Assembly (NCBI GenBank): GCA_030264375.1
Contig: JASCQW010000032.1
Coordinates: 72,177,615 to 72,241,614 of the forward strand
Length of the DNA: 64,000 bases
Source of the DNA: Carcharhinus longimanus
Taxonomy: Eukaryota
Direction: 5' to 3'
The notes beneath the pieces are model-generated. The model was not told where the DNA came from. It made no database searches and worked only from the letters and a program-made list of their open reading frames with translations. The translations under genes and the position numbers were made by a program. Shown here one piece after another: positions 13,111-58,612 of this stretch (its first letter is position 1; each line of letters begins with the position of its first letter).

Positions 13111-13619
13111 CTCAGCGGGATGCCACTGCAATCATCTTAAATATTTTTCAGTCGTCCATCCACAAGAACACAGGTTGACAAAATGTTCAGTGCCCTTACC
13201 ACTGAAGTGATTTACCCTATCGATGAACGTGACCACATAAGCATATTGTGGAGGTCTGTGCCCAGTTCCGCAGTAGCTGCTGAGTTATTTATCTTGTCAA
13301 ATATCCCCCTGATTTTCTCATCTGGCAGGGCAGATACGTGAGAGAGGGATGTTGGGGGGGAGGGACAATTCACTTCAATCTTAGCCCCGACACGCCGTCA
13401 CAAACGCATTGCGCTTGAGCAGTTCAGAAATAAAAAATACCTATAACAGCAAGAGGAGAATCATTGAGCTCACCATTTTATTCCTGAAGCAACTCTTTCA
13501 ATGCACAGATAGGTCTGGGGCTCATCTCTACAGCCAGTGTCTCATCCATAATGACATCCAGTCATGAGTTAGACAACATTGCTGTCCAAGGAGGACTGGA
13601 ACTGCAGCAGGCAGACCGA

Positions 13620-14158
13620 CAAATAAAGAAAATAAGGAAATTTGTTATGTCCACTACGCTTCTCACCAACTTTTATAGATGCACAATAGAAAGCATTCTT
13701 TTTGGTTGTATTACAACCTGGCGTGGCTCCTGCTCTGTTCAAGACTGAAAGAAACTACAAAAGGCCGTGAGCGAGGTCCAGTCCATCTCACAAACCAGCC
13801 TGCCATCCATTGACACTGTCTACGCTTCCCACTTCCTCAGAAAATCAGTCAGCATAATTAAAGGCCCCACACACCTTGGACATACACTCTTCCACATTCT
13901 TTCATCGAGAAAAAGATACAAAAGTCTAAGGTCACATACCAGCCGACTCAAGATCAACTAGTTCACTGCTGCCATCAGACTTTTGAATGGACTTACCTTG
14001 CATTAAGTTCTTTATCTACACTCTAACAATGAGTGTAACACAATGTCCTGCATGATCTCCTTTTCTTCTCTATGAACGGTACGCTTTGTCTATATAGTGC
14101 GCAAGAAACAATACTTTTCACTGTGTACCAATACATACAACAATAAATCAAATCAAAT
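13620..14158 (+). mobile_element. Rex1/Babar-type LINE 3' end
   Basis: LTNFYRCTIESIL.GCIT.W.GSCS motif typical of the Rex1 C-terminus; tail ends caataaatcaaatcaaa. Confidence 0.85.
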
Positions 14159-15829
14159 AGCTTCCTTTTTGCGTGATGAGCAGGCTGGGCCTAGACAAGG
14201 CAGAAACAAAGGAAAATGTGCCCAAAAATACCCAGTTTGCTTGCACTCCACTGAGAAATTTCAAAAATAAACAGAGCTAATCCTCCTGGCCCTCTCCATA
14301 TTGTCAGGTTAAATTGGTAAGACCAGCACCAGCGGCAAACTTTGCCACACAAGGTTAAAATAATGCAGGAGTCAGATTGACATCATCAGACCCTGAATGT
14401 TGAACATCAATGTCGAAGACAGGGAGAGCCACTGCATGTTGCTCCACATGTGCCTGTAAATATTAGTGTGGGATATGAATGTATACCAATCATGAAGGTC
14501 ATTGCCACAATTTTAACCCCTATCCCACATCCCTGCTGACCCACTTTTTGTCAGGGTTGGGGGTTAAAATTGAGCTGCTGACATTTGGCCCACATCTGTT
14601 TTGTGAATTGAAACAGTTCAGCTCACAAAGCCTAGAAACCTCAGTGTGGTTTATATTTCCAGGGAGTGGATCTGTGGAGGCAGGCAGTGGGAGGGGAGAA
14701 AATATATATGTTAGAACTGGAAGGGCTGAGGAAAATCTGGTAACCACCTTGTGTACCATTTTTCAACTGTATCTGCAGTCCTTCTGTCATAGTTACAGTT
14801 AGTTACCTGGAGAAAGCTCCTCATCCCTGCCATTTAAATTTATCCCCATAAACCCTATTGGAGTTTAGGACAAAGGTTTGGACACTGCTGTGATGAGTGT
14901 TGCTGCCTAATAGGTGAATGTATCTCAAATCAGATCACCAAGGTCTGTTAGTAATTTATAAAAGCTGCAAATTAATGAATTGAAAGTTTACAAAGACAAT
15001 TCTAGCCTTTGTGTGTGGAGTTGGCAAGGTGCAGGTGTTGTGGAACTGGAAGCGGAACCATATTGTGAACAAGTTGCACGAGGGATTACATCTTTGATTA
15101 ATAACATTCCCACTGCCGGAATGAAAACATGCGCTGCTGAGGGTCTTCAAAGCCTTGCAGGAGTTTGAACGAGGCTTGCAGCAGCAGTAATTGTGAGTCA
15201 CTCGTCATGTCAACCCGATGCAGTTGGAGCAGCAAGGTAATACAATGGAGGGAGCTAGTGCAGTCAGGTTAGTCAGGCATTAGAATGAGTCAGTTAGGGT
15301 GCTTGAAAAGATGTGACACAAGCTATAATATATATGATCAGTACCTCGCTCAGACCCGACTGCACGAAACATTTAATGGTCTCCCCAGGGGTCCTACGGT
15401 TGGAGATCCTAGCAAAGCCTATTCTAATATTCAAAATGAATAGCATAATCATAGTGGTGGAATTTCTTTCAGTTACTGAGTAATCCTCATCATCGCTCCC
15501 TCCTTCTCCAACTAACATTAAAGTGTCAAAAACTTGCATTTATAGAACACCTTCAACATAGAGACCCACCCCTTGTACTTCACAGAAATGTGAATGTAGC
15601 AGATGATCAACTTAAGAAGGAGGTATTCTGAAGAGTGATGAAAAGCATTGTCAAAGAGGTCAGGCTTAAGTCAGGCCTTTATGAAAGAAAAGAAGCTGGA
15701 GAGGTGAAGGGATTGAAGAATTTTGGTGCACAAATATTGAGCTTGCTGGCCAAAAGTATAACTGCCGATGGCGATGGGGCAGGATGGGGCAGAGGAATAC
15801 ATAAAAGATCAAAGTTCAGAGGAATGACA

Positions 15830-16459: not shown

Positions 16460-16760
16460 GGTGGCGCGGTGAAACAGTGGTTAGCACTGCTGCCTCAAGG
16501 CACCAGGGACTCAGGTTTGAGTCCCGGCTTGGGTCACTGTCTATGCGGAGTCTGAATGTTCTCCCCATGTCTGCGTGGGTTTCCTCTGGGTGATCCGGTT
16601 TCCTCCCACAGTCCAAAAGATGTGCTGGTTAGGTGCAATGGCCATGCTAAATTCTCCCTCAGTATACCGTAAAAGGCACTGGAGTGTGGACACTAGGGGA
16701 TTTTTGCAGTAACTTCATAGCAGTGTTAATGTAAGTCCATTTGTGACACTAATAAATACA
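16460..16760 (+). mobile_element. HE1-type SINE, tail B
   Basis: V core followed by ggagtgtgg..actagggga...gtaacttcat...gtgacactaataaa. Confidence 0.85.
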
Positions 16761-17559
16761 AAAAAAGGTGATGTTACAAAATGAGAAGCATATGGCCCTG
16801 GTGATTAAGAGGACATGGTGGAGGGTGGGGGGTGTTGGGGGGGTGGATTTCAATGTGGGAACCTGGCGAAAGTGAGGGAATAATGATATTATAATAGCTG
16901 TAGGGTACTTACCTTTGTTCATGTCAATAATCCTGTCACTGTCATCCTGAATGAACACTGGATGGCTGGAGTGCCCATCTATCTTAGGCATTGAATCCTC
17001 TTAATATCTGAAACAGGGGCTTACGGTGAATTTGGATCCCGATTGCCATTTTATGATTCAACTGGGCAGAACTTGTGTCACATCCAGTTTTACAGATGGG
17101 ACAGCTGTTCAAATGTCAGAATCTAGGGTTGCAGAATTCCTCTTCATCTTCAAGAACCCTACCTTGTATTTTACCTGTTAATCAAATGAACTTTATAAAA
17201 TCACCTCCTCTAGACCACAAAATGGCAAGATGTCTGGAAAGTAGCGCTGTCCTAAAATTATAAAATTATGACAAAGGTGCTGCCTGTTTTTGGCAGGAAT
17301 GTTTGATATCTGCTGCTGTTCTAATCAGAAAATAACAGCTGATGCAAGATGAGGCAGATCCAAAAGTGGATTTGCATCATGAAGCACAATAGAATCTACA
17401 ACTGACCCATAAATATCCATAACATGGATACAAGTGACCCATGGTAATGCAAATATCCCTGCTTTAAATATTTATGCTATTAGAAATATTAATTTGAAAT
17501 ACCTCAGTGGAATACATATACACAGATTTCAAACTGTATTTCCCTCATGCACATTCTCA

Positions 17560-20078: not shown

Positions 20079-20944
20079 CTACTTCCTTTCCGTGCCAAGG
20101 GTGGTGCACTATACATGAAAAACCAGATTTGGGGGACTGACAATTCTCTGATAATTTCCGTCATCCATTTGGGGTCATCTCCTGCACTCTGGTGGGCAAT
20201 GGAAGTTACACTATAAGTTTAAATAATCTGGAATGATTCCATGTTGAAATGAGTTGGTTTTGGCAGAATCTGCTATCATATGTTTGTGACAGTGCCATGT
20301 GGTATAAAGCTGCTGTATAATCTTTCTTTTTAAGAGAAGTGATCTTATGCCAACAGGAAAAGAAATAGAAAAGTTCCATTATCTTATATCAGAAAAAACA
20401 AATTAAAATGATGATTTAGAACTAAAACAATCCAATAGAACTTGCAGTCGGTTGCTTTAGGAAGTGCACATATTGCCTTGTTTTCTGAAGCAAGTAGCTT
20501 TTCCCAGATGGTCAGAGAAAACTTTTTTTATATATCAGAAAATGCAAACTATTGCTTTCGGGTAAAGCGCCGCATAAAAGGTAATTTCCCTATATCAAAA
20601 TGAAAAACGGAAGTCAGTAAGGTAATGATTTAATTTATCTTTAGGAATAATTACTGCCTAGCTGGAGGCTACCACTGCACTCATTTGAAAGAGAAAGCAT
20701 TCAGACTGTATTTATCTGTTTAATTGTTCTGAATCATCAACAAATGCCCAGTTGTGAATGTGAAGCTGCATTAAAAATGCACTTTATCTCGAAAGGTTTG
20801 CCTAGATTGTGCTTGAAATGTAGACAAACTCAGATACTGTGGAATACCATGGAGCTAAATAAAATGCAAGTGCAATTCTGACATTCTGAAAAGACACTTC
20901 CAGGTTTCACCGTGCTGAAAGTACATCACTAAAATTGTAATATA

Positions 20945-21298: not shown

Positions 21299-21660
21299 CC
21301 ATGAACTCCTGAATCCTGATGACANNNNNNNNNNNNNNNNNNNNNNNNNNNNNNNNNNNNNNNNNNNNNNNNNNNNNNNNNNNNNNNNNNNNNNNNNNNN
21401 NNNNNNNNNNNNNNNNNNNNNNNNNNNNNNNNNNNNNNNNNNNNNNNNNNNNNNNNNNNNNNNNNNNNNNNNNNNNNNNNNNNNNNNNNNNNNNNNNNNN
21501 NNNNNNNNNNNNNNNNNNNNNNNNNNNNNNNNNNNNNNNNNNNNNNNNNNNNNNNNNNNNNNNNNNNNNNNNNNNNNNNNNNNNNNNNNNNNNNNNNNNN
21601 NNNNNNNNNNNNNNNTTTTTTTGTATTTCTGTGAAGTACTTTGGGGTTTCCTGAGAACAT

Positions 21661-22941
21661 GACACATTAAAAATGAGAAACATGAAACTACATTGTTAAA
21701 CTAGAAATTCAAAGCCATTTCTTCAGGAAAATAAGTCATTTGTTAAAGAAAAACATGTTCAGTGCAGTATTCCTGGCTACTGGCATTGGATGTCAGTTAT
21801 GCTCATTAATGATGTTCATTGTCGCTGAGATCACCTCCCCTTAGTGGATGCCTCAGGGATGTAATGAGAGCTGCAGGAATTTCCCACACCCTTACAAGGC
21901 TGCCCCGTCAGGTTTGTCAGTGCTGCCCCAGGGTTGGATGTGAGGGATCACTCTGTGTCTGATCGGGGGAACTGCAATTGGGAAGAGAGTGCACTGAAAG
22001 CCATCTCACGCCCTTCCTTGCCTCCACCCACTCAACCCCCTCCCCTCCTCCACCCTATCCTACCCTCATTCAACTTTGGTCATCGCACAGTTCTCAAGGG
22101 CTTTGGTGCAAGCTCTATTACTCCCACTGGCAGCAGCTCTCAGCTGGCAGAACTTCCGCTGCCAAGGATCTCAATCGTGGGAAGGCACGGTGGTGGCCTG
22201 AAAGGCACTTGATTCCATTGAGCCTCCACCACAGAACTGACGAGGGTTCCCTGACTGCCCAACAAATCCTGCCCCCGTCTGTGGGCTGCACAGTTCTACA
22301 TGAACTACTTGCCCTTTGCTACAAAACCCAGTAGATAGTGCAACCCAAAAGGGTTTGGAGGAAGATGACCTGAAATCACTACAATCCCTCCAAGGATTTA
22401 CGTGAGAACTGCTGTGACTCAGTTTGCGTGCCTGGCGGTATTAAGTTACCTGCTTGATGTACAAGCTGCCTTTTGATTAATAGCTCGGGCCTGCAGGAGA
22501 GATGCATTAGCCATCTACACCAGCTCTATAGAAATCCCTTGTGTCACTGTCCTATACAAAATCACAAGTGCAAGTTGAGTACTTCTTTACACAGGTTATC
22601 AAATGTACTTGTTTTCCTCGTAATGCTTCAACCTGAAATACTGACCCAAAACTGGCTGCAAAGTTTATATAATAATGAAACACAACACTTTCATTTGCAT
22701 GGTTGTTGCCATATTTTGTTGATGTACCTGAAAATACTTCACACATTAATTTTTTTTTGAAGCGCAGTGACTATTTTTATGTAGTAAAATTCCTTCAATG
22801 CAAACATTGCTTCAAAAGAAGGCAAAAAGATGAGGACTGTTGAACATGTTTTTCTTTTACAAATGACTTATTTTCCTGAAGAAATGGCTTTGAGTTTCTA
22901 ATTTAATAATCTAGTTTCATGTTTCTCATTTTTAATGTGTC
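21661..22941. repeat. Long inverted repeat: arms 21661-21761 and 22841-22941, spacer 1079 bp
   Basis: The reverse complement of the left arm matches the right arm at 96/101 positions with no indels (checked by eye). Confidence 0.95.
22450..22551 (-). other. Candidate non-coding, poison or terminal exon (102 nt)
   Basis: Minus strand: branch-like tactcaac, acceptor gtgattttgtatAG, donor CAG|gtaact. Stops in all three frames. Unique sequence inside the long inverted repeat. Confidence 0.3.
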
Positions 22942-22959
22942 TACCATTTTACCTCACAA

Positions 22960-23130
22960 CTTGATTTGATTTATGATTGTCACATGTATTAGTATGCAAT
23001 GAAAAGTATTGTTTTTTGTGTGCTATGCAGACAAAGCATACCATAGACAGAGAAGGAAAGGAGAGGGTGCAGAATGTTGTGTTACAGTCATGGCTAAGGT
23101 ATAGAGAAAGATCAACTTAATATAAGGTCG
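22960..23130 (-). mobile_element. Rex1-type LINE tail fragment
   Basis: Reverse complement of 14020-14158. Confidence 0.75.
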
Positions 23131-25311
23131 ATCTCTATGAAGTGAAATGGGAAATATTCTTTGCCAGCATTTTAATTTTAATTTGCATTGAATTGAATCA
23201 TGTGTGCACGAAATATGCAATGGATTTCATTTTGTAGTAAAAGAACAGCGTTGACCTTATGGAGGCAACCCCAGTTAGCTGCAAACATCATTCTGGCACA
23301 GAAGGTCCATAGCAATTCTCTCATTCTCGCATCATGACGCCACACACAGAAAACTCAAATTCAGCTCCAGTCTCTATAATGGTCTATAAAGGCTAATTTC
23401 AGCTGGAGCAATTGTGAGATGTCACAATTGGCCAATAGGGAGGGGAAAGGTCTGTTAGTATAACTGTTCTGGCAGCCACTGAATCCCACTGGAAAGCATC
23501 CTGTGTCCACATCAGGGGACAACAGAATTGTGCTTGGCTATGATGACTTGCATAGCTGAATAGACTGCCAGCCTTGGCTTTAAGAACAGCTACTTGCATG
23601 TTTCACTAAGAAGTGTCTTGCACAGTAGTTCCGGATAGCACAGGGCGAAGATATAAGAAACAGGTTTAAATCTGGTTCCTGCTGCAGAAATATCTATCGA
23701 AATCTTGCAAACAATCCCTGCATTCTATGGCAGGGTGTTTACTTACTTACAAGAAATCAACCGCAATGGTTTTGATAATATATTTTCCAATTGAATTTCA
23801 TGCATATTNNNNNNNNNNACGGTAATGCTTGAAAACACACCCGGCCTTTATGAGCACTAATAGATGTCCGATTAAAACCCTTTCTTGTGCTTTGGATTTT
23901 TTTCTCTCTCAAATTACTGTAGTGTCGCAGCCGAGAAGACTACATTTTCCATTTCTTATAAATAGCCACAAGAAATGTATTAATTATCCTCACGGAATTT
24001 AATGCACCAAGTGCTTTAACCTTTCAGGTTTTAAACTCCTGCATAACAAGGCATATCCATGGTAGCAAATGTGATTTATGACACGAATGTTTAATTTGTG
24101 TTGTTTAAGACATTACTGAGCTATCTGCATACATTTAAATTCACCCGCAACACTTTTTTTTTCTGACTCCAGACAGTTATTTAATATTCAAGGATGATTT
24201 TGTCCACATACATTTTGGTTTGTGTCACCTCAAATTAAATTATTACTGTTTCCTTCCTTTGTAGCAGGCCTTAGGCTGTTATTTACAAGAATCAATGAAA
24301 TGGAAATGAAAATCCATTTTTCATACTATCAGCTGGGTCTTACCTTTATTTAGTTAGCTTCATCTAACCAAGCTATTCTTTATGTACAAATGTCAACGCA
24401 CGAGGAAACACAGAGGCGCGAAAGAGTTAAATTTTAATGGGAAAAAATAAGTTTTGCCATTTCATTTAGACAAAGGACTTGTAATTAAGCTTTAGTTTAA
24501 GTAAGACCAAACAAATTTGCTAAAAAATTACTCATTCAAGAAATAATTTTCCCTCCTCGGAACCAATACCTTGATAGGCTATACAGTGATCCTGATTTGG
24601 AGTGTGACCTTTGAAAGCTCTCTCCAGCTTGATTAAAGATGTATTAAATTTGTTTAAATAAACCTTGTTGTAATGGCACATCATTTGTAAGAAGCTATTA
24701 GGGCCTGGAAATTGTGCTGCTGTATTTGCATTAAAATGTGCCCTGCTAAAATTGAGGATCACATTGAATGAGCTGCTATGCCAGGGTGACACTTTCATAA
24801 TTTCTCCGGTGACAAAAGCAGATGAAACTTTATGCTGAGCGGGATGAGGGAGGAGGGGGGAACTGCTTAACAGCACCAGAGGTTTATAATTCAGTACTGA
24901 GGGAGCATGTTAACAGCTCTGTATGTTCCTCTGACACCTATCTACCGTACAATATTTATTACGTTACTGGGGTTGTTTTTGAGTCGCATTTCTCAGTAAA
25001 ATATACCCTCGCATTTATGACCCAAGATCCCAGAAATACAACATCGAACCAGTCACTCCAAACAGCTGCTGTGTTCGCAAGACAATCGTAAATAAAATGC
25101 ACGTAGTGCAAAGTTATTTCTTGTTTTTCTGCTTCTTCCTCCTATTCTGCTAAAATTATTTTTCCATTGAGACTTCCAGTGCTTCCCACCTGACTCCATG
25201 CCTTCCTAATCCTGCTGCAAGACTCATGAGGGCTGCCTCTTGCTTCATAACTGCTGCCATCACCGGGAACTTAATCAATGATTGAGATAAGGTGACCCCC
25301 CCCACACAAGA

Positions 25312-32444: not shown

Positions 32445-32830
32445 CAATTTTAATTTGATTTTATTTATTCCATGTATTGGCATACAGTGAAAAGTATTGT
32501 TTCTGGCACACTATACAAGCCTTTCGTAAGAAGGAAGGGAGCAGGTGTAGAATGTAGTCTTATAGTCACAGCTAGTGTAGAGAACTTAATATAAGATAGG
32601 TCATGCAAAAGTCTAATGGCAACAGGGAAGAAGCTGTTCTTGACTCATTTGGTACATGTCTTCAGATTTTTGTATCTCTCTCCCAATGGAACGAGGTAGA
32701 ACAAGGCAGAAGAAAATATATCTGGGATGCACGGGGTCCTTGATTATGCTGACTGCTTTTCTGAGGCAGCAGGATGTGTAGACAAAGTCAATGGATGGGA
32801 GGCTGGTTTCTGATATGGATTGGGCTTTCT
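32445..32830 (-). mobile_element. Rex1-type LINE 3' end
   Basis: AQSISETSLPSIDFVYTSCCLRKAVSIIKDP, homologous to 13767-13961. Confidence 0.85.
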
Positions 32831-33864: not shown

Positions 33865-34240
33865 TTATTTGAGCACAAAATCTAGATGGACGCTCCAGGT
33901 CAGCGCTGAAGGAGTGCTGCCAGGTCGAAGGTGCTGATCTTCAGATGAAACATGAAAACATTAGCCCACTCTGCTCTATTAGGTGCACATAACCCAGTGC
34001 ATTATTTTAAAAAAGAACGCAGATGATCTCTCTGGTGTCTTAGACAGTATTTATCTCTCAACCCACATCACTAAAACCGATTATCTGGTCATTATCACAT
34101 TGCTGTTAATGTGATTTGTTGTGTGTCTGCACATTTCCTGTATTATCAACATACACTTCAAAACTATTTCATTCCCTGTAAAGCACTTTGAGATGTCCTG
34201 AGGTTGTGTAAGGTGTTATATGAATGCAAATTCTTTGTTT
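33865..34240 (+). mobile_element. Deu-SINE (SacSINE1-like) with L2-type tail
   Basis: Deu-domain-like ggtgctgatcttcagatgaaac, then gattatctggtcattatcacattgctg and tail ctgtaaagcactttgagatgtcctgagg. Family name is from a recalled consensus. Confidence 0.65.
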
Positions 34241-38425: not shown

Positions 38426-38928
38426 TGGGGGTAGGCCTGGGTAGGATGCTCTCCAGAGAGGTGTTGCAAACTCGATAGGGCTGAATGGACTCCTTCTACG
38501 CTGTTGGGATTCTGTGATTCCATGAATTAATGAAAAAAGAATTTCTCTCTTTTTGGATGGTTTGTTGCTGGTGATATCTATGGTACACCATTATCCTTTC
38601 TCCATATCTTTCTACTGTTCCTCATTCTGTTATAATTCTGACAACCTTCATTGGAATGTATTGTAATGCTCCCTTGCTGATCGAAATGCCTTGGGACAGT
38701 TTTCTATAATAAAGGCACCAACTAAATTTAAGTTGTTGTTGTCACTTTGATTCTTTTCAAATCTGGTGCTATCTAGTGCCCTCTGCACAGATACTTGGGT
38801 TTGGTTATTTAGTTTTACAAAAGACCTTTGATGGCGCATCCTTTTCCTTTTCATGGCTCCTGCTCTTTTCAACACATATCCATCTTACTCGGAGTGTACT
38901 TTAGCAATGTTTCAAATAGATACAGTAC

Positions 38929-39026
38929 CTTTTGAGCTTCAGATTCAAGGCCTGGTTCTTGGTGAGTTTGTTGATCTTGTCCAGGTTGGCACTAACACCA
39001 CCGCCAGTGGCTTCAATGCCGCTCAA
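38929..39026 (-). CDS. Internal coding exon (98 nt) of an unidentified large gene; peptide LSGIEATGGGVSANLDKINKLTKNQALNLKLK(R/S)
   Basis: Minus strand: long polypyrimidine tract cctgtctcttctattatctccctctcttaAG, then one open frame (the other two stop within 5 codons) with protein-like codons, then donor AAG|gtactg. Phase 0 in, phase 2 out. Lies in unique sequence. Confidence 0.7.
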
Positions 39027-39134
39027 CTTAAGAGAGGGAGATAATAGAAGAGACAGGATTTGTGTTCCCGATCAGCACTGGAATGTTCTTGAGAGTAAAT
39101 TATGATGATAAATGCAGGTAGAGTGACAAGAAGG

Positions 39135-42375: not shown

Positions 42376-42509
42376 CAGTGTGATTCACTTCCTAGCTTTT
42401 ACAGAGGGCCATTGCTGGTGAGTTAAATGTCTCAAATCTGGGTCCATTGACATGGTGAGCTGTAGGTGTGACTAGGTCAATGGACCCAGTTTTGAGACAT
42501 CTAACATCT

Positions 42510-45500
42510 TGATTTCAATCAAGCCACACCTTGTAAATAAAGCTGCAATGCTTTATTTAAGTAACCTAAGTTGTGGCGCCTCAGAAATTCTTTTTCCTTG
42601 TTGTCAGGCTCATCAGAAACAATTGTACAAGAAGGAAAAACTGGCGACCAGATTAGTTTTAAGTCGGAATAGACCGGATTCTGAAGCTTTTCTTTTAAAC
42701 AGTGACTTTGGCATGAAATGGGACATTGACATCGGGAAGACAAGAGAAAAAAACATCAGCACCTCAATGTGAAACAGGTCGAGAAACCTTGCCATGCGGT
42801 AAAGTATCTCTCAAGAGCAGAGAAAACTGCAAGAAGCAAAACTGAGCCTTGAAAAAGAAGAACAGAAAAATGTTGGAAAATTTCAGCAGGTCTGACAACA
42901 TTTGTGAAGAGAGTGTAGGCCAACATTTTGAGTCTCAATGAGTTCGGTCAGACTTTAAAACAGTTATCTAGGAGACAGCATAGATAAAGGATGGCCTCCA
43001 CAATGAATCTAAAAAAAACGACAGTGATCCTAGATGTGCCAAGGCCACAGAATGTGTCACAGTTACAATCATTTTTAGGACCATTCAATTATTACAGAAA
43101 GTGCATCCAAACCCTGTAACACTAATAAAGCCACTTCATGTTTACTGTGTGCTAACTAACAATGGAATTGGACAAAAGAGTTGGAAGTGCATACAAAGGA
43201 GATTAAAAACTCAAGCAATCCGCAGTCCACTTTAACCCAGAATTCAAAATTCAGCTAACATGTCATGCACTGCAGTATGGGGTGGGTGCTGTTGTATCTC
43301 ACATCGTGGTAACTGGGGAGGAGTCACTAATAGTGACCATTTTGAAGCACAGAACAAAATTATGCACAACTTGAGAAAGAAGTGCTCAGCATAATTTTTG
43401 GCATTAAACAAATTCACCAGTAGCTGTATGGCAGATGATTTACTTTGTTGGCTGACCACAGGCTGTTGATGACGATTTTTGGTCCAGACCAGTGAATTTT
43501 ATCATTAGCCACAAGTCATCTACAAAGATGGGTGTTACTCTTGTCAATGAATAATTATGAAATCAAGTATCGGAGGTCAGAACAGCATGGCAACACGGAC
43601 ACCTTATTGAGATTGCCACTTGAGGATGAAACCGGATCACAAGACAGCTACATCAACATATTATCCTTCATCCAGGTTGAGGATGTTCCAGTAACATTGT
43701 CTCAGGTGCAAAGGCACACAGGGAATGATGCGGTAGTGGGGAGGGTCATGGATCGCGTTTTAAAAGGAACATCATTCGACAAACAAAAGAAGAATCCTGA
43801 ATTCTTATGTAATGAGGGAGTTTGAATTAACTGGCCAAAATGGAGTATTGCCACAGGAGATCAGGATGATCATCCCTCTATGCTTCTGATGCCAGATCCT
43901 GGATCAACTCCAGGGATAGTATGGATTAGGGATCTTGCACAAAGCTACTTTTTTGTGGCTGGGACTTATCCCACAAATAGAAGAAAAAGTGAAGCAATGC
44001 CAATCATTTGCCAGAACATGGAATACTCCACTTCCACAACCTGCTCACCCATGGGAGTGGCCAAAACAAGCTTGGCAGAGAATGTTTGTCAACTTTGTAG
44101 GGCTCATTGAAGGCTACATGTTTCTTGTCCTAGTGGATATGCATTCAAAGTGGCCCAAAGTCAGGGTGATGAAATCTACCACAAAAGAAAGAGCCAGATA
44201 GAGTTGGATGAGTTGTTTGCAAGATTTGGATGGCCCAAAGAACTAGTCAGTGATAGTAGGACACAATTCACAGCCCAGGGATTTGTGGATTCTCTTAAAA
44301 ACAATGGTATACAGCACATGGGGACTGCCCCACTACTGGATTGACGAGGAGGTTAATACATTCAACGAAACATGCCATAGAAGAGTTAAAAGACAAAGGT
44401 TCACTAGCTAGGAGAGTAAACAACTTCCTCATATATGTGAGAAGACTCATGCCACCACACAAAATTCACTGGAAATGTTGTTCCTGAGAAGGAACTAACT
44501 TCAATCTACTCACACCATCTGACTCTACTGCAATAGGAGAGCAACAACAACAAGCACAAGTTGCTCACCATGAACAAGCTTCAAAACTGAGGAGTTTTAA
44601 ACAAGAAGAAAGGACTTTAGCAAAACACTACTCAATAAGTGAGAAGTGGGTACCTGCAATCATTCTAGCTAAGACAGGTCCAATTTCTTATACAGTGCAA
44701 TTTGATGATGAGAGAATATGACAAAGGCACAGAGATCAAATCCCCACTTCAAAAAGTGAATTAGCGGAGACAGTATCAGAAACATTACATCAGACACCTA
44801 AGGTTGTGAAATCTCTGAACCACGGATTACTACGAATAAAGTTCAGATTCTACTCCAGTAGAACAACCTACCTCTGGAAGCTGACATTGAAGCAACTTCA
44901 TAATATGAAGTATCAGATACCTGTGAGGAACGAACTACCGAGGATATGAAATATCACACTCTGGAATGTCCTATCTTACCAAAACAAAATCGAGGTTCAC
45001 CAAAAAGACACTCAATTTACTTACACATATGTAGATAATAATACTTGAAAATGTAACTGATGTCCATAGTGGGTAATTATTAATGTGTAAAAGTTTATTG
45101 TTGTACAACTGAAGTAAAGGGGGAAGGATGTTATGTATTGTAAAGCAATGTATCTCTGTGTGATTAGTCACAAAGAATCCGAGAATCAAAGAATCCCTAC
45201 AATGCATAAGGAGGCCATTCGGCCCATCGAGCCTGCACTGACAACAATCCCACTCAGGTCCTATCCTCGTAACCTCATATATATACCCAGCTAGTCCCTT
45301 TGACACTAATGGGCAATTTAGCATGGCCAAACAACCTAACCTACACATCTTTGCAGCGTGGGAGAAAACCAAAGCACCTGAAGGAATCCCATGCAGACAC
45401 AGGGAGAATGTCTGCAGAGTTTGTACAATGACCCACGCCTGGAATTGAACCTGGGTTCCTGGGGCTGTGAGGCAGCACTGTGCCACTGTGCTGCCCCATG

Positions 45501-45683
45501 ATCTGCTATGACATCAGTGAAGGCATCCATGGGCTTTTGTCTCTGTTCCATGTTGGATTTCAACCAGGCATTATGTTATGAATAAAGCTGTGTTGGCTTG
45601 TTTAAGTAACCCACGGTGTGGCATATCAGCAATCCTTTTTCCTTGTTATCCAATCAGTCAGAAAAAATTGCACGTACATAACA
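42510..45683 (+). mobile_element. Decayed Ty3/Gypsy LTR retrotransposon, internally deleted
   Basis: Partial 5' LTR (~42510-42630) similar to the 3' LTR; PBS-like tggcgacc at ~42642; RNaseH/integrase remnants (YEIKYRRSEQHGNTDTLLRLP; HPWEWPKQAWQR...LVLVDMHSKWP; FARFGWPKELVSD); PPT aaagggggaagga; 3' LTR 45129-45683 TGTTATG...CATAACA. Confidence 0.9.
45178..45498 (-). mobile_element. HE1-type SINE inserted in the Gypsy 3' LTR
   Basis: Full reverse-complement SINE between the LTR halves. Confidence 0.85.
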
Positions 45684-46219: not shown

Positions 46220-48225
46220 ATGGAGTGATTTAGGTAGAGCTGAGGAACATTAAACGGCAAAAGACATTAATGGAGGTTTTACATAGATCTCCAAGCTGTG
46301 GTGGTGAAGTTAAGGATTGGGCAAATCAAATTAGTCACAATACTGTGAAAGGGGAATTCCTGGAGTGTAAACAGGAGGATTTTTTGGACAACAAACTAGA
46401 CAACAGGCTATCCTATACTGAGTATTGTGTAATGAGAAAGGATAATTGGTCAACTAGAGACCTCATGGGGATGAGTGACCATAACATGGTAGAATTCTTC
46501 ATTATTATAGAGAGTGATGTATTGATTCTGAACCTCGGGTCCTGAATCTTAATAAAGCTGACCATGTTGGTGTGAAACATGAGTTGGCTGTGATGTATTG
46601 GGAAATGTTAGTAAAAGGAATGATGGTGGATAGGCTATGGCAAACATTCAAAGAGCACATGGATAAACTGCAACAATTGCTCCTTCCTGTCTGGCATAAA
46701 TGTAAAATTGGAAAGCTGGTCAAACCATGGCTTACAGGGGAAAATTAGAGGTATTATTAGATCCAAAGAAAAGGCATACAAATTGGCCAAAAAAAAACAA
46801 CAGACCTGAGGATTGGGAGCAGTTTAAAATTCAGCAAAGGAGGACCAATGGACTGATTAAGAAGGGGGAAATAGAGTATGAGAGTAAGCTTGCAGGGAAC
46901 ATAAAACCTGACTGTAAAAGCTTCCATCGGTATGTGAAGAGAAAAAGATTGGTGAAGACAAATGCAGGCCCCTTATAGTCAGAAACATGTGAGTTTATAA
47001 TGGTGAACAAAAAAGTGACTCAGTAAGTACATGCTTTGGCTCTGTCTTCACAAAGGAGGACACAAATAACATACCAGAAATGTTGGGGAACACAGAGTTT
47101 AGTGCAAGGGAGGAATTAAAGGAAATCAATTTTAGTAGAGAATTGTTGTTGGGGAAATTGAAGGCCAATAAATCCATCAGGACCCCTGATCTCTGTGGAG
47201 TAGTCCTATAAGGGCCCATCCTAGGATCTACATCCTAGAGTAATCCAGGTAGGTGACTCTAGATATTGAGGATACATTGGGTGGTCATCTTTTAAGACTT
47301 GAGAGACTCTGGAACAGTTGCTACTGTTAGGGGGATAGCTAATGTCACCCCACTATTTAAAAAGGGAGGTAGAGAGAAAACAGGAAATTATAGACCAGTC
47401 AGCCAGATGTCAGTAGCGGGGAAAGTTCTGGAATCCATTATCAGATTTTATGGCAGAGAACTTGGAAAACAGTGGTAGAATCTGCGTCAGCGTGGATTTA
47501 CGAAAGTGAAATCATGCGTGACAAGTTAGCTAGAATTCTTCATGGGTGCAACTAGTAGAATTGTTGAGGCAAAGCCAGTGGATATTGTTTATTTAGATTT
47601 TCAGAAGGCTTTCGACAAAGACCCACATAAGAGATTAGCATGTAAAATTACAGTGCACAGATGGATAGAAAACAGGTTGGCAGATGGGAAACAGAGAGGG
47701 AATAAACAGGCCTTTTTCTGAATTTCCTTATCTGAGGAAAGATGTTCTTGCTGTAGAGGGACTGCGGTGAAAGTTCCTTAGATTGATTCCTGGAATGGTG
47801 GGACTGATATGAGGAGAAATTGAGTCAGTTAGGATTATATTTGCTGGAATGAGGAGGAATCTCGTAGAAAAATGTAAAATTCTAACAGAACTAAACAGGG
47901 TTGATGCAGGAAGGATATTTCCAATGGCATGAGCATTTAGAACCATGGGTCATATTCTAATGACACGGGTTAAACCTTTTAGGTCTGAGATTAGGAGAAA
48001 TTTCTTCACCCAGAGATTGGTGAGCCTATGGAATTCATTACCACAGAAAGCAGTTGAGGCCAAAATATATATTTTCAAGAAAGAGATAGTAATAGCTCTT
48101 AAGATAAAGAGGATCAAAGGATGGGTGTGAAGGCTGGATCAGAATATTGAGTTGTTTGATGAGCCATGATCATAATGAATAGTGGATTTGAAGGGCCTAT
48201 TCCTGTCCCTATTTTCTATGTTTTA
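46220..48225 (+). mobile_element. Longer CR1 LINE ORF2 remnant (EN end, RT, 3' tail), frameshifted and deleted
   Basis: SDHNMVEF; KSFHRYVKRKR; PLFKKGGREKTGNYRPVS; DIVYLDFQKAFDK; RRNFFTQRLVSLWNSLP. Confidence 0.9.
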
Positions 48226-49169
48226 ATGAGTGCCTCCAATACTTCTGTGGTGTTGGGGAAGGGTCCCCCTCCATAGACGTGGTGGGGAAGATTTCATAGA
48301 TTAATGATGGACCCCTGATCTCTGAGGATTAGTCCTATAAGGGCCCACTCTGACAGACTGATAGTACAAACCAACCCCGACCCCCATTCTTTTGACATAG
48401 TGTCAGAAGATCTGGTCAGAAAGCTTGGCAGTGAGAAACACACCAGTTTTCAGTCAGAACCTGAGACCTTGCCATTTTTTCGGAAAATTCCACCCCACAT
48501 CAATGTTGTATGGGGTGCTGGATTACACCAGAATAAAAATGTGCATCCTTTACAAGTCAGCAACATGACCTTTGATCTACAAGGGTCAACAGGTCAGCAG
48601 CATCGGCACAAATGGCCAAATTGTCTATTTTTCCTCCTATTTCTCATGTTCTTAACTCGCTTTAGGTATCGCAATATATATCCCCCTGCCGGTCCTTATT
48701 GACATCCAACAAAACACTTTCCAGAAATCCATTGGATCAATATCAGGATTGGAAGCTATGGCTGGGGTTTGTCTCCCTAGCCCTGTGGCAATGAGATCAA
48801 TGATATTGCCTCTAATTATCAGCCTGAATAAGACTGGCAGATTCAGTATCAGCCAGGTCTGGACCTCAAACATTTCTAGCCGAGCTTATCCCCATACAGG
48901 ACAGTGCATTTAATAACGGAGACATCGAGAGCAATTTAACGATATGTAAACATGAAAGGTTATTGAGCTATTTTGATTTCACAGAGTAGCACCAACTTTG
49001 ATTCTTCCTACAGTAATTAGATTTCAAGATGTATTCAGCTGTCTTGATTCTTCTGTCCTTGAGACAACACTATAATAAGTGTGGAGCTCGGTGTGGGCAG
49101 TTCATGAACTTTGAGGAGTGTGTGGGAGTGAATGCACGGGAAATGTGTGGGGAATATGTATCATGCTCG

Positions 49170-58249: not shown

Positions 58250-58612
58250 TCTCTCCACTCACATTGTCTGTACCTTTAAGACTTGATTACCTGTAAGGAC
58301 TCACACTNNNNNNNNNNNNNNNNNNNNNNNNNNNNNNNNNNNNNNNNNNNNNNNNNNNNNNNNNNNNNNNNNNNNNNNNNNNNNNNNNNNNNNNNNNNNN
58401 NNNNNNNCATTGTCTGTACCTTTAAGACTTGATTACCTGTAAGGACTCACACTCCAATCATTATTTTGTAAATTGAGTTTGTGTCTTTACATGCCCTGTT
58501 TGTGAACAGAACTCCCGCTCACCTGCTGAAGGGACAGCACTCTGAAAGCTTGTAACTTCTACTACCAAATAAGCCTGTTGGACTTTAACCTGGTTTTGTG
58601 AGACTTCTTACT
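58250..58612 (+). mobile_element. Penelope-like terminus with degenerate hammerhead-like core
   Basis: cacctgctgaagggacagcactctgaaagcttg followed by cctgttggactttaacctggt, as at 35912-35985. Confidence 0.65.

What the first reader, a model, noticed from the sequence alone, without database searches (positions are those of the whole stretch)
21661..22941. 101-bp near-perfect inverted repeat of non-repetitive AT-rich DNA bracketing 1.08 kb
Seen: arms 21661-21761 and 22841-22941 match at 96/101 with no indels, resemble no repeat family I see in this window, and have no target-site duplication (flanks ...gaacat / taccat...). In a plus transcript the five differences give two G-U wobbles, one A:C, one C:C and one U:U; in a minus transcript two A:C and one G-U, plus two purine mismatches. 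Inference, three options: (a) a functional long-range intronic RNA duplex (ADAR substrate, exon looping or circularisation); (b) the scar of a staggered-break micro-inversion; (c) TIRs of an unknown DNA transposon.
Basis: partly seen in the sequence, partly recalled or inferred. Interest (0 to 1): 0.75.

Follow-up and report, generated by a model that had tools for sequence, protein, structure and literature searches.

The report
Old single-copy inverted duplication scar
A 101-base stretch of ordinary DNA sits twice, back to front, 1.08 kb apart; four related genomes share the locus without extra copies and the arms differ by lineage-specific changes, so it is likely an ordinary old copying scar rather than a transposon or a functional RNA duplex.

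Summary
Contigs from 4 of 22 holder runs (four organisms, 2.1-6.9% from the window) were laid on the locus. Both arms are seen or implied in three of them. The closest one covers the left arm, the spacer and only 7 letters of the right arm. Arm depth stays near spacer level against 10^5-10^6 over the neighbouring repeat, so this is neither a misassembly nor a multicopy transposon end. Three of the five window mismatches are absent in a relative; no compensatory change was seen. Arm divergence equals the right flank's rate (14 vs 14.8 expected) but is below the spacer's (14 vs 25, P=0.011), so mild constraint is not excluded. No host gene was found and no RNA could be laid. Best reading (0.72): a neutral inverted duplication from a template switch or staggered break, older than all sampled splits; whether the spacer flipped is unresolved. 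One distant relative leaves the window's sequence exactly at the left arm's outer end, so the arms may once have been longer. The scan noted a similar scar in another genome (e1-3308074).

The parts
21616..21660 (.). Left flank between the 291-N gap and the left arm; probably the edge of an older dispersed repeat. Shared by relatives B and D, not by E.
   Evidence: table 8: X6 aligns from 21629, X12 from 21633, X16 stops at 21661 with 269 letters unlaid. First-bin depth exceeds the listed records by 13-26 in three runs. The within-window match to 34176-34202 is not above shuffled controls, so the repeat reading is inferred.
21661..21761 (+). Left arm, 101 nt, 27% GC, single copy
   Evidence: covered whole in X6 and X16, in pieces in X12, inner 29 letters in X19
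21762..22560 (.). GC-rich (52%) part of the spacer with CpG-type decay; likely an old repeat fragment, near single copy at 85% likeness
   Evidence: 9 of 16 listed X16 differences in 21762-21923 are CpG-type; no Pfam hit in 12 of 12 arm/spacer ORFs scanned; no Rfam match at gathering score
22561..22840 (.). AT-rich (33% GC) part of the spacer
   Evidence: covered by one contig in each of 4 runs
22841..22941 (-). Right arm, reverse complement of the left arm at 96 of 101
   Evidence: covered whole in X16 and X19, in pieces in X12, only to 22847 by the listed X6 contig
22942..22957 (.). 16-nt unique right flank shared by D, E and (to 22955) G
   Evidence: table 8 records 3, 9, 18
22958..23128 (-). 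Tail of a very high-copy retroelement-like repeat, likely inserted after the duplication; not continued into by relative G
   Evidence: Depth 10^5-10^6 (table 2); copies at 14029-14156 and 32452-32574; X19 record 18 runs on unlike after 22955

Best explanation
The two arms are single-copy, inverted copies of one AT-rich stretch that four related genomes share at least in part, and they were likely made by one replication or repair template switch that copied about 100 or more bases onto the opposite strand 1.1 kb away, after which they have likely been decaying without function. Shown: the repeat is real, not multicopy, older than the splits to relatives about 7% away, and carries lineage-specific unpaired changes. 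Inferred: the origin by template switch (about 0.42 for an inverted insertion that left the spacer in place, about 0.30 for a switch or staggered break that also flipped the spacer), and the lack of function. If the region is transcribed the arms would form a duplex of about -140 kcal/mol on either strand and could be edited as a by-product.
For: (1) No pile-up on the arms in 4 of 4 runs laid: depth in the two inner arm bins 12.3 and 10.5 against spacer 10.5 (X16), 7.7 and 14.8 against 14 (X19), versus 10^5-10^6 on the adjacent repeat (the tool warns that depth is not copy number, but the contrast is five orders of magnitude). (2) Both arms in relatives: X16 has both in one contig (21661-22989); X12 and X19 spacer contigs end symmetrically inside the arms (21714/22888 and 21733/22869, both summing to the axis 44602), and X12's breaks imply exactly the window's perfect run 21709-21743. 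(3) Decay: X16 reads A at 21695 and C at 21708, the letters that pair with the window's right arm, while the window, X6 and X12 share the mismatch letters; X16 has its own change at 21751; X19's inner 30 letters pair perfectly, so the 21744 mismatch is absent there (inferred from contig ends). X16's unbroken contig implies further unpaired changes in its arms (inferred from 31-letter graph behaviour). (4) Rate: arm-bearing records differ from the window at 14 places against 14.8 expected from X12's right-flank rate; X12 6 of 261 against 17 of 710, Fisher P=1.0. (5) Clock: 5 arm-arm mismatches against 3.9-6.9 expected if the copy arose at the deepest sampled split. (6) The class is common: inverted duplications of non-repetitive DNA, 46 bp to about 1.9 kb, at 17 of 29 Drosophila inversions (PMC1885836, passages); templated insertions as human germline variants (PMC8421209, section 10 part 1).
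Against: The ancestral one-arm state was not seen in any of 4 relatives, so the origin is not shown. Against the spacer's rate the arms look conserved (14 against 25.2 expected, P=0.011; X16 left arm 3 of 101 against 16 of 162, Fisher P=0.048), and the flank used as the neutral yardstick may itself be constrained; among changes private to the window, the AT-rich spacer part (2 in 280) is not clearly slower than the GC-rich part (7 in 799; table 3). The 14 differences come from records that include 120 non-arm letters and, for X16, only from the 40 of 185 rows shown. Both dated changes in the window's lineage give G-U pairs in a plus transcript (1 in 4 by chance for two transitions). X16 departs from the window exactly at 21661, which a simple insertion into the present left flank does not predict.
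Confidence: 0.72

Rival explanations
1. The arms form a selected long-range RNA duplex in an intron or non-coding transcript (editing substrate, exon looping or circularisation).
For: Predicted duplex -139.8 (plus) and -137.9 (minus) kcal/mol; the best inverted pair in the window by identity; arms differ from relatives less than the spacer does (P=0.011); two dated changes are G-U-compatible on the plus strand; kept across about 7% spacer divergence.
Against: Arm rate equals the right-flank rate; C:C, U:U and C:A mismatches stand; no compensatory change among the rows shown, and unpaired changes implied in X12 and X16; no exon confirmed in 256 ORFs scanned against Pfam or in four candidate exons searched further, and no exon candidate lies in the loop.
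Confidence: 0.13
2. The unit is a lone surviving non-autonomous DNA transposon with 101-nt terminal inverted repeats, whose left target-site copy was removed by a deletion starting at the element end.
For: Length 1.28 kb with long terminal repeats; TA follows the right arm (sequence); X16 departs from the window exactly at the left end, as deletions adjacent to an element end do (recalled).
Against: No other copies at 85% likeness in 4 of 4 whole runs, although a family with 95%-identical arms should be young enough to show; no target-site duplication; no transposase fragment in 12 of 12 ORFs scanned.
Confidence: 0.07
3. The arms are the surviving core of an older or longer inverted duplication kept alike by occasional arm-to-arm gene conversion or template switching, with outer parts lost in the window's lineage.
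For: X16 leaves the window exactly at the outer end of the left arm with 269 unlaid letters; X19's right-arm contig runs 377 letters without the branch expected at the outer end, and no separate left-arm contig was laid; perfect runs of 30 and 35 nt in the window; template switching is reported to perfect near-perfect inverted repeats (PMC7954356, Introduction part 1).
Against: Run lengths are not unusual (P=0.11); no remainder of a longer left arm in the window (best match to the 16-nt right flank has 4 mismatches), though the gap could hide it; the unlaid letters were not printed; a filtered or missing record explains X19 equally well.
Confidence: 0.07
4. The repeat is an assembly artefact next to the 291-N gap.
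For: The left arm starts 45 letters from a gap.
Against: X6 spans left flank, left arm and spacer in one contig; X16 spans both arms in one contig; X12 has contigs across all four junctions.
Confidence: 0.01

Closest known systems
Inverted duplications of non-repetitive DNA at inversion breakpoints, staggered-break model (Ranz et al. 2007, PMC1885836; passages read)
   Same: Non-repetitive sequence duplicated in inverted orientation at the two ends of a segment; one duplicated side only is the common case (12 of 18 there); size within their 46 bp to 1.9 kb range.
   Different: Their inversions are chromosome-scale and proven by an outgroup; here the spacer is 1.08 kb and no relative with one arm or a flipped spacer was found.
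Short-range template-switch events, four-point model (Walker et al. 2021, PMC7954356; abstract and Introduction part 1) and MMBIR-type templated insertions (Osia et al. 2021, PMC8421209; abstract and section 10 part 1)
   Same: A reverse-complement copy of a nearby template that leaves an inverted repeat; short homologies at junctions (a 6-letter word lies on both sides of the left arm, chance about 0.4% post hoc).
   Different: The template here is about 1.1 kb away, beyond the tens to hundreds of nucleotides modelled by Walker et al.; the pre-event allele was not found, and the outer junction differs in one relative.
Pairs of conserved complementary regions in introns (PMC8052449; passages)
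   Same: Long, very stable, long-range complementary pair; such pairs are enriched for A-to-I editing and outside back-spliced introns.
   Different: Those lie in conserved intronic regions of known genes and their best cases show compensatory substitutions; here no host gene, no compensatory change and no clear excess conservation were found.
Non-autonomous DNA transposons with long terminal inverted repeats (MITE or Foldback type; recalled)
   Same: Terminal inverted repeats around a non-coding interior.
   Different: No target-site duplication, no copies, no transposase trace.

Membership tests
Non-autonomous TIR DNA transposon | Terminal inverted repeats | tested here: met
   101 nt, 96 of 101
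Non-autonomous TIR DNA transposon | Target-site duplication | tested here: not met
   Only an offset 3-letter match; the left flank may be secondary
Non-autonomous TIR DNA transposon | Dispersed copies in the genome | tested here: not met
   No pile-up on arms in 4 of 4 relatives at 85% likeness; the window's own genome is not held
Staggered-break inversion with inverted duplication | Inverted duplication of non-repetitive sequence at both ends of a segment | tested here: met
Staggered-break inversion with inverted duplication | Outgroup with one copy and the segment in opposite orientation | tested here: inconclusive
   Not seen in 4 of 4 relatives; same orientation in 2 of 2 resolvable (X6, X16); no deeper outgroup available
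Template-switch or MMBIR templated insertion | Inserted sequence matches a nearby template in reverse orientation | tested here: met
Template-switch or MMBIR templated insertion | Microhomology at the junctions | tested here: inconclusive
   6-letter word on both sides of the left arm, but the outer junction is not shared by relative E
Template-switch or MMBIR templated insertion | Ancestral allele without the copy | tested here: inconclusive
   No listed contig skips either arm; 15 of 68 joints shown, all in the neighbouring repeat
Conserved intronic RNA duplex or ADAR substrate | Stable long-range duplex | tested here: met
   About -140 kcal/mol on either strand, predicted
Conserved intronic RNA duplex or ADAR substrate | Lies within a transcript | tested here: inconclusive
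   No exon confirmed; small exons or proteins over 2000 residues could be missed
Conserved intronic RNA duplex or ADAR substrate | Conservation above neutral DNA | tested here: inconclusive
   Equal to right flank (P=0.49), below spacer (P=0.011)
Conserved intronic RNA duplex or ADAR substrate | Compensatory substitutions | tested here: inconclusive
   None among 40 of 185 rows shown; right-arm rows were cut; unpaired changes implied in X12 and X16
Conserved intronic RNA duplex or ADAR substrate | A-to-I editing or splicing effect | not testable with these tools
   No RNA run could be laid

The most novel reading that the evidence does not exclude
A chance inverted duplication was recruited as a long-range RNA duplex in a shark transcript and has been held near-perfect (by selection or arm-to-arm conversion) across lineages about 7% apart, accepting G-U-compatible changes; it may be the core of a longer ancestral stem still intact in relatives E and G. 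It would be a datable case of a non-repeat editing or splicing structure being born.
Probability: 0.15. Interest if true: 0.6.

Novelty: new member of a known kind. Interest (0 to 1): 0.2.

Why it matters
If the best reading holds it matters little: one more local inverted duplication, useful as a shared structural marker for a clade and as an example that a 101-nt, 95% inverted repeat with a 1-kb loop can persist in a vertebrate genome. It would matter more if deeper outgroups showed the arms held together by paired changes, because most long double-stranded RNA in animals is attributed to repeat pairs (recalled) and a dated, non-repeat duplex would let one watch such a structure arise.

Tried and rejected
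Own-genome search: no genome held. RNA: no RNA holder listed; this says nothing on expression. Host gene: a rough splice-site scan and reading by eye gave candidates at 38904-39071, 16752-17000, 15297-15539 and 13215-13397, all minus strand. 256 filtered ORFs (33 aa or more, mostly outside repeats, with an AG..GT segment; not all ORFs) gave no Pfam hit above its cut-off. Three word-indexed protein searches gave nothing (proteins up to 2000 residues only). The full phmmer search gave 4 hits, which looked like repetitive proteins adding up weak stretches; the one named is bacterial. PDB searches gave no credible match. Rfam: 0 matches at gathering score in the window, one chance-level match at E=0.42. 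My first model, a 95-letter insertion with a 6-letter target duplication into the present left flank, was weakened: relative E does not share that flank. Holes in coverage (X6 beyond 22847; X6, X16, X19 over 23170-23808; X19 over 21695-21708) prove nothing by the tool's own warning; X6's word share (0.46) is higher than its listed contig explains, so I do not claim loss of the right arm in B, although that contig has 25 unlaid letters after 22847. Left flank as a repeat: within-window score 34 against shuffled best scores 30-39, not significant. Dating: the pedigree rate of 7e-10 per generation (PMC10587355, passages) would give roughly 30-50 million generations by simple arithmetic; I do not trust that as a date (wide interval, another species, unknown generation time). 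Literature: searches listed no paper on this locus or on such repeats in sharks; only listings and the passages named were seen, no supplements were read, and subscription journals are largely missing.

Full report
Observation. Arms 21661-21761 and 22841-22941 pair at 96 of 101 without gaps, with the five mismatches as stated. The arm occurs nowhere else in the window, is the most identical of 88 inverted pairs of 80 nt or more (95% against at most 83%), and has no target-site duplication. The spacer has a GC-rich left part (52%) and an AT-rich right part (33%). A 291-N gap ends 45 letters to the left, and a high-copy repeat tail begins 16 letters to the right.

Relatives. No genome is held. 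A run search on 21616-23808 listed 22 holders, all assembled contigs. I laid 4 of them, from four organisms (B, D, E, G), at 85% likeness. The output was flooded by the repeat tail: 40 of 185 difference rows, 15 of 68 joints, 24 of 1,099 loose ends and 32 of 94,595 pieces were shown. The main contigs differ from the window by 2.1% (B), 4.1% (D), 6.5% (E) and 6.9% (G). B spans left flank, left arm and spacer in one contig and stops aligning at 22847. D has contigs over all four junctions. E has both arms in one contig. G's spacer contig ends symmetrically 30 letters from the inner edges, and a second contig carries the right arm. The ends in D and G sum to the repeat's axis, and D's breaks imply exactly the window's perfect run 21709-21743, which supports reading contig ends as places where the arms share 30 or more letters. 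The structure is therefore real and older than the deepest sampled split. The spacer has the window's orientation in both relatives where one contig decides it (B against the left flank, E against the right).

Copy number. Depth on the arms stays near that of the spacer in E and G and is mostly accounted for by overlapping junction contigs in D (an excess of 7.7 in one right-arm bin is unexplained), whereas the neighbouring repeat reaches 10^5-10^6. The tool warns that depth is not copy number, but a transposon family with 95%-identical ends would have left many contigs here. With no target-site duplication and no transposase trace in 12 of 12 arm and spacer ORFs, the transposon reading fails.

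History of the mismatches. E reads A at 21695 and C at 21708, the letters that pair with the window's right arm; the window, B and D share the mismatch letters, so these two changes arose after the split from E. G's inner 30 letters pair perfectly (inferred), so the 21744 mismatch is absent there. E has its own left-arm change at 21751; its partner position was not shown. E's unbroken contig implies at least one more unpaired change in each of two long runs, and D's implies one in the outer 30 letters (inferred). No compensatory change appears among the rows shown, but right-arm rows were cut, so this test is incomplete.

Rates. Arm-bearing records differ from the window at 14 places. Scaled to D's right flank (17 of 710) the expectation is 14.8 (P=0.49); scaled to the spacer contigs it is 25.2 (P=0.011). 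The spacer's left part shows CpG-type decay (9 of 16 listed differences), which inflates its rate, while the arms have no CpG. But the flank may itself be constrained, and changes private to the window are about as dense in the AT-rich spacer part (2 in 280) as in the GC-rich part (7 in 799). So neutrality is favoured, not proven. Five arm-arm mismatches fit a birth at or shortly before the deepest split (3.9-6.9 expected).

Mechanism. A reverse-complement copy of nearby unique DNA is the expected product of a template switch (PMC7954356, abstract and Introduction part 1; PMC8421209, abstract and section 10 part 1) or of staggered breaks at an inversion (PMC1885836, passages). [quoted passage not shown] A 6-letter word lies on both sides of the left arm (chance about 0.4%, post hoc), which first suggested an insertion into the present left flank. 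E argues against taking that literally: its contig leaves the window exactly at 21661. Either the window's left junction is secondary and the arms were once longer, or E changed at that very base. G's right-arm contig also runs past the outer end without a branch. No remainder of a longer arm is found in the window, but the gap could hide one. Whether the spacer flipped cannot be told without a deeper outgroup.

RNA reading. The duplex is predicted at -139.8 (plus) and -137.9 (minus) kcal/mol (whole-region fold), so any transcript through the region would carry a strong stem, of the kind enriched for editing in human introns (PMC8052449, passages). But no host gene was found, no RNA could be laid, and Rfam has no match. 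Passive editing would not show function.

Novelty and verdict. Searches listed no paper on this locus; supplements were not read and could hold structural-variant lists that bear on it. Earlier scan notes had nothing at this place or on this sequence and one similar scar in another genome (unchecked, seen after I had reached this reading). Verdict: a real, old, single-copy inverted duplication, most likely a neutral scar (0.72); selected duplex 0.13; lone transposon 0.07; longer or conversion-maintained repeat 0.07; artefact 0.01. New member of a known kind; interest 0.2.

Noticed in passing
window 21661 (relative E, run X16 record 9): The contig aligns exactly to the outer end of the left arm and continues for 269 letters unlike the window; the letters were not printed. 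Record coordinates were read as native-strand, which four other minus-strand records support.
   Followed up: partly
window 22958-23128: Tail of a repeat with depth 10^5-10^6 in all four runs; present in D and E, not continued into by G, which would place G outside the other four lineages.
   Followed up: partly
window 22848-22872 (relative B, run X6 record 25): The contig has 25 unlaid letters 7 letters into the right arm and crosses the left arm unbroken, so B's right arm may be altered; not established.
   Followed up: partly
window 38904-39071, 16752-17000, 15297-15539, 13215-13397 (minus strand): Exon-like stretches with splice-like ends and protein-like translations; no homologue found, phases only partly compatible.
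   Followed up: partly
window about 42420-45680: Decayed integrase-like and RNase-H-like reading frames (43200-44700) between two similar direct stretches at 42422-42628 and 45556-45673; looks like an old LTR retrotransposon.
   Followed up: no
window 47180-47218 and 48309-48347: A low-copy 39-letter similar pair about 1.1 kb apart within and beside a LINE-like fragment.
   Followed up: no
window 58262-58307 and 58408-58453: The same 46 letters on both sides of a 100-N gap; probably an unmerged assembly overlap.
   Followed up: no
window 20400-20660 and 23820-24500: Unique AT-rich stretches that look like conserved non-coding DNA by eye; not tested.
   Followed up: no
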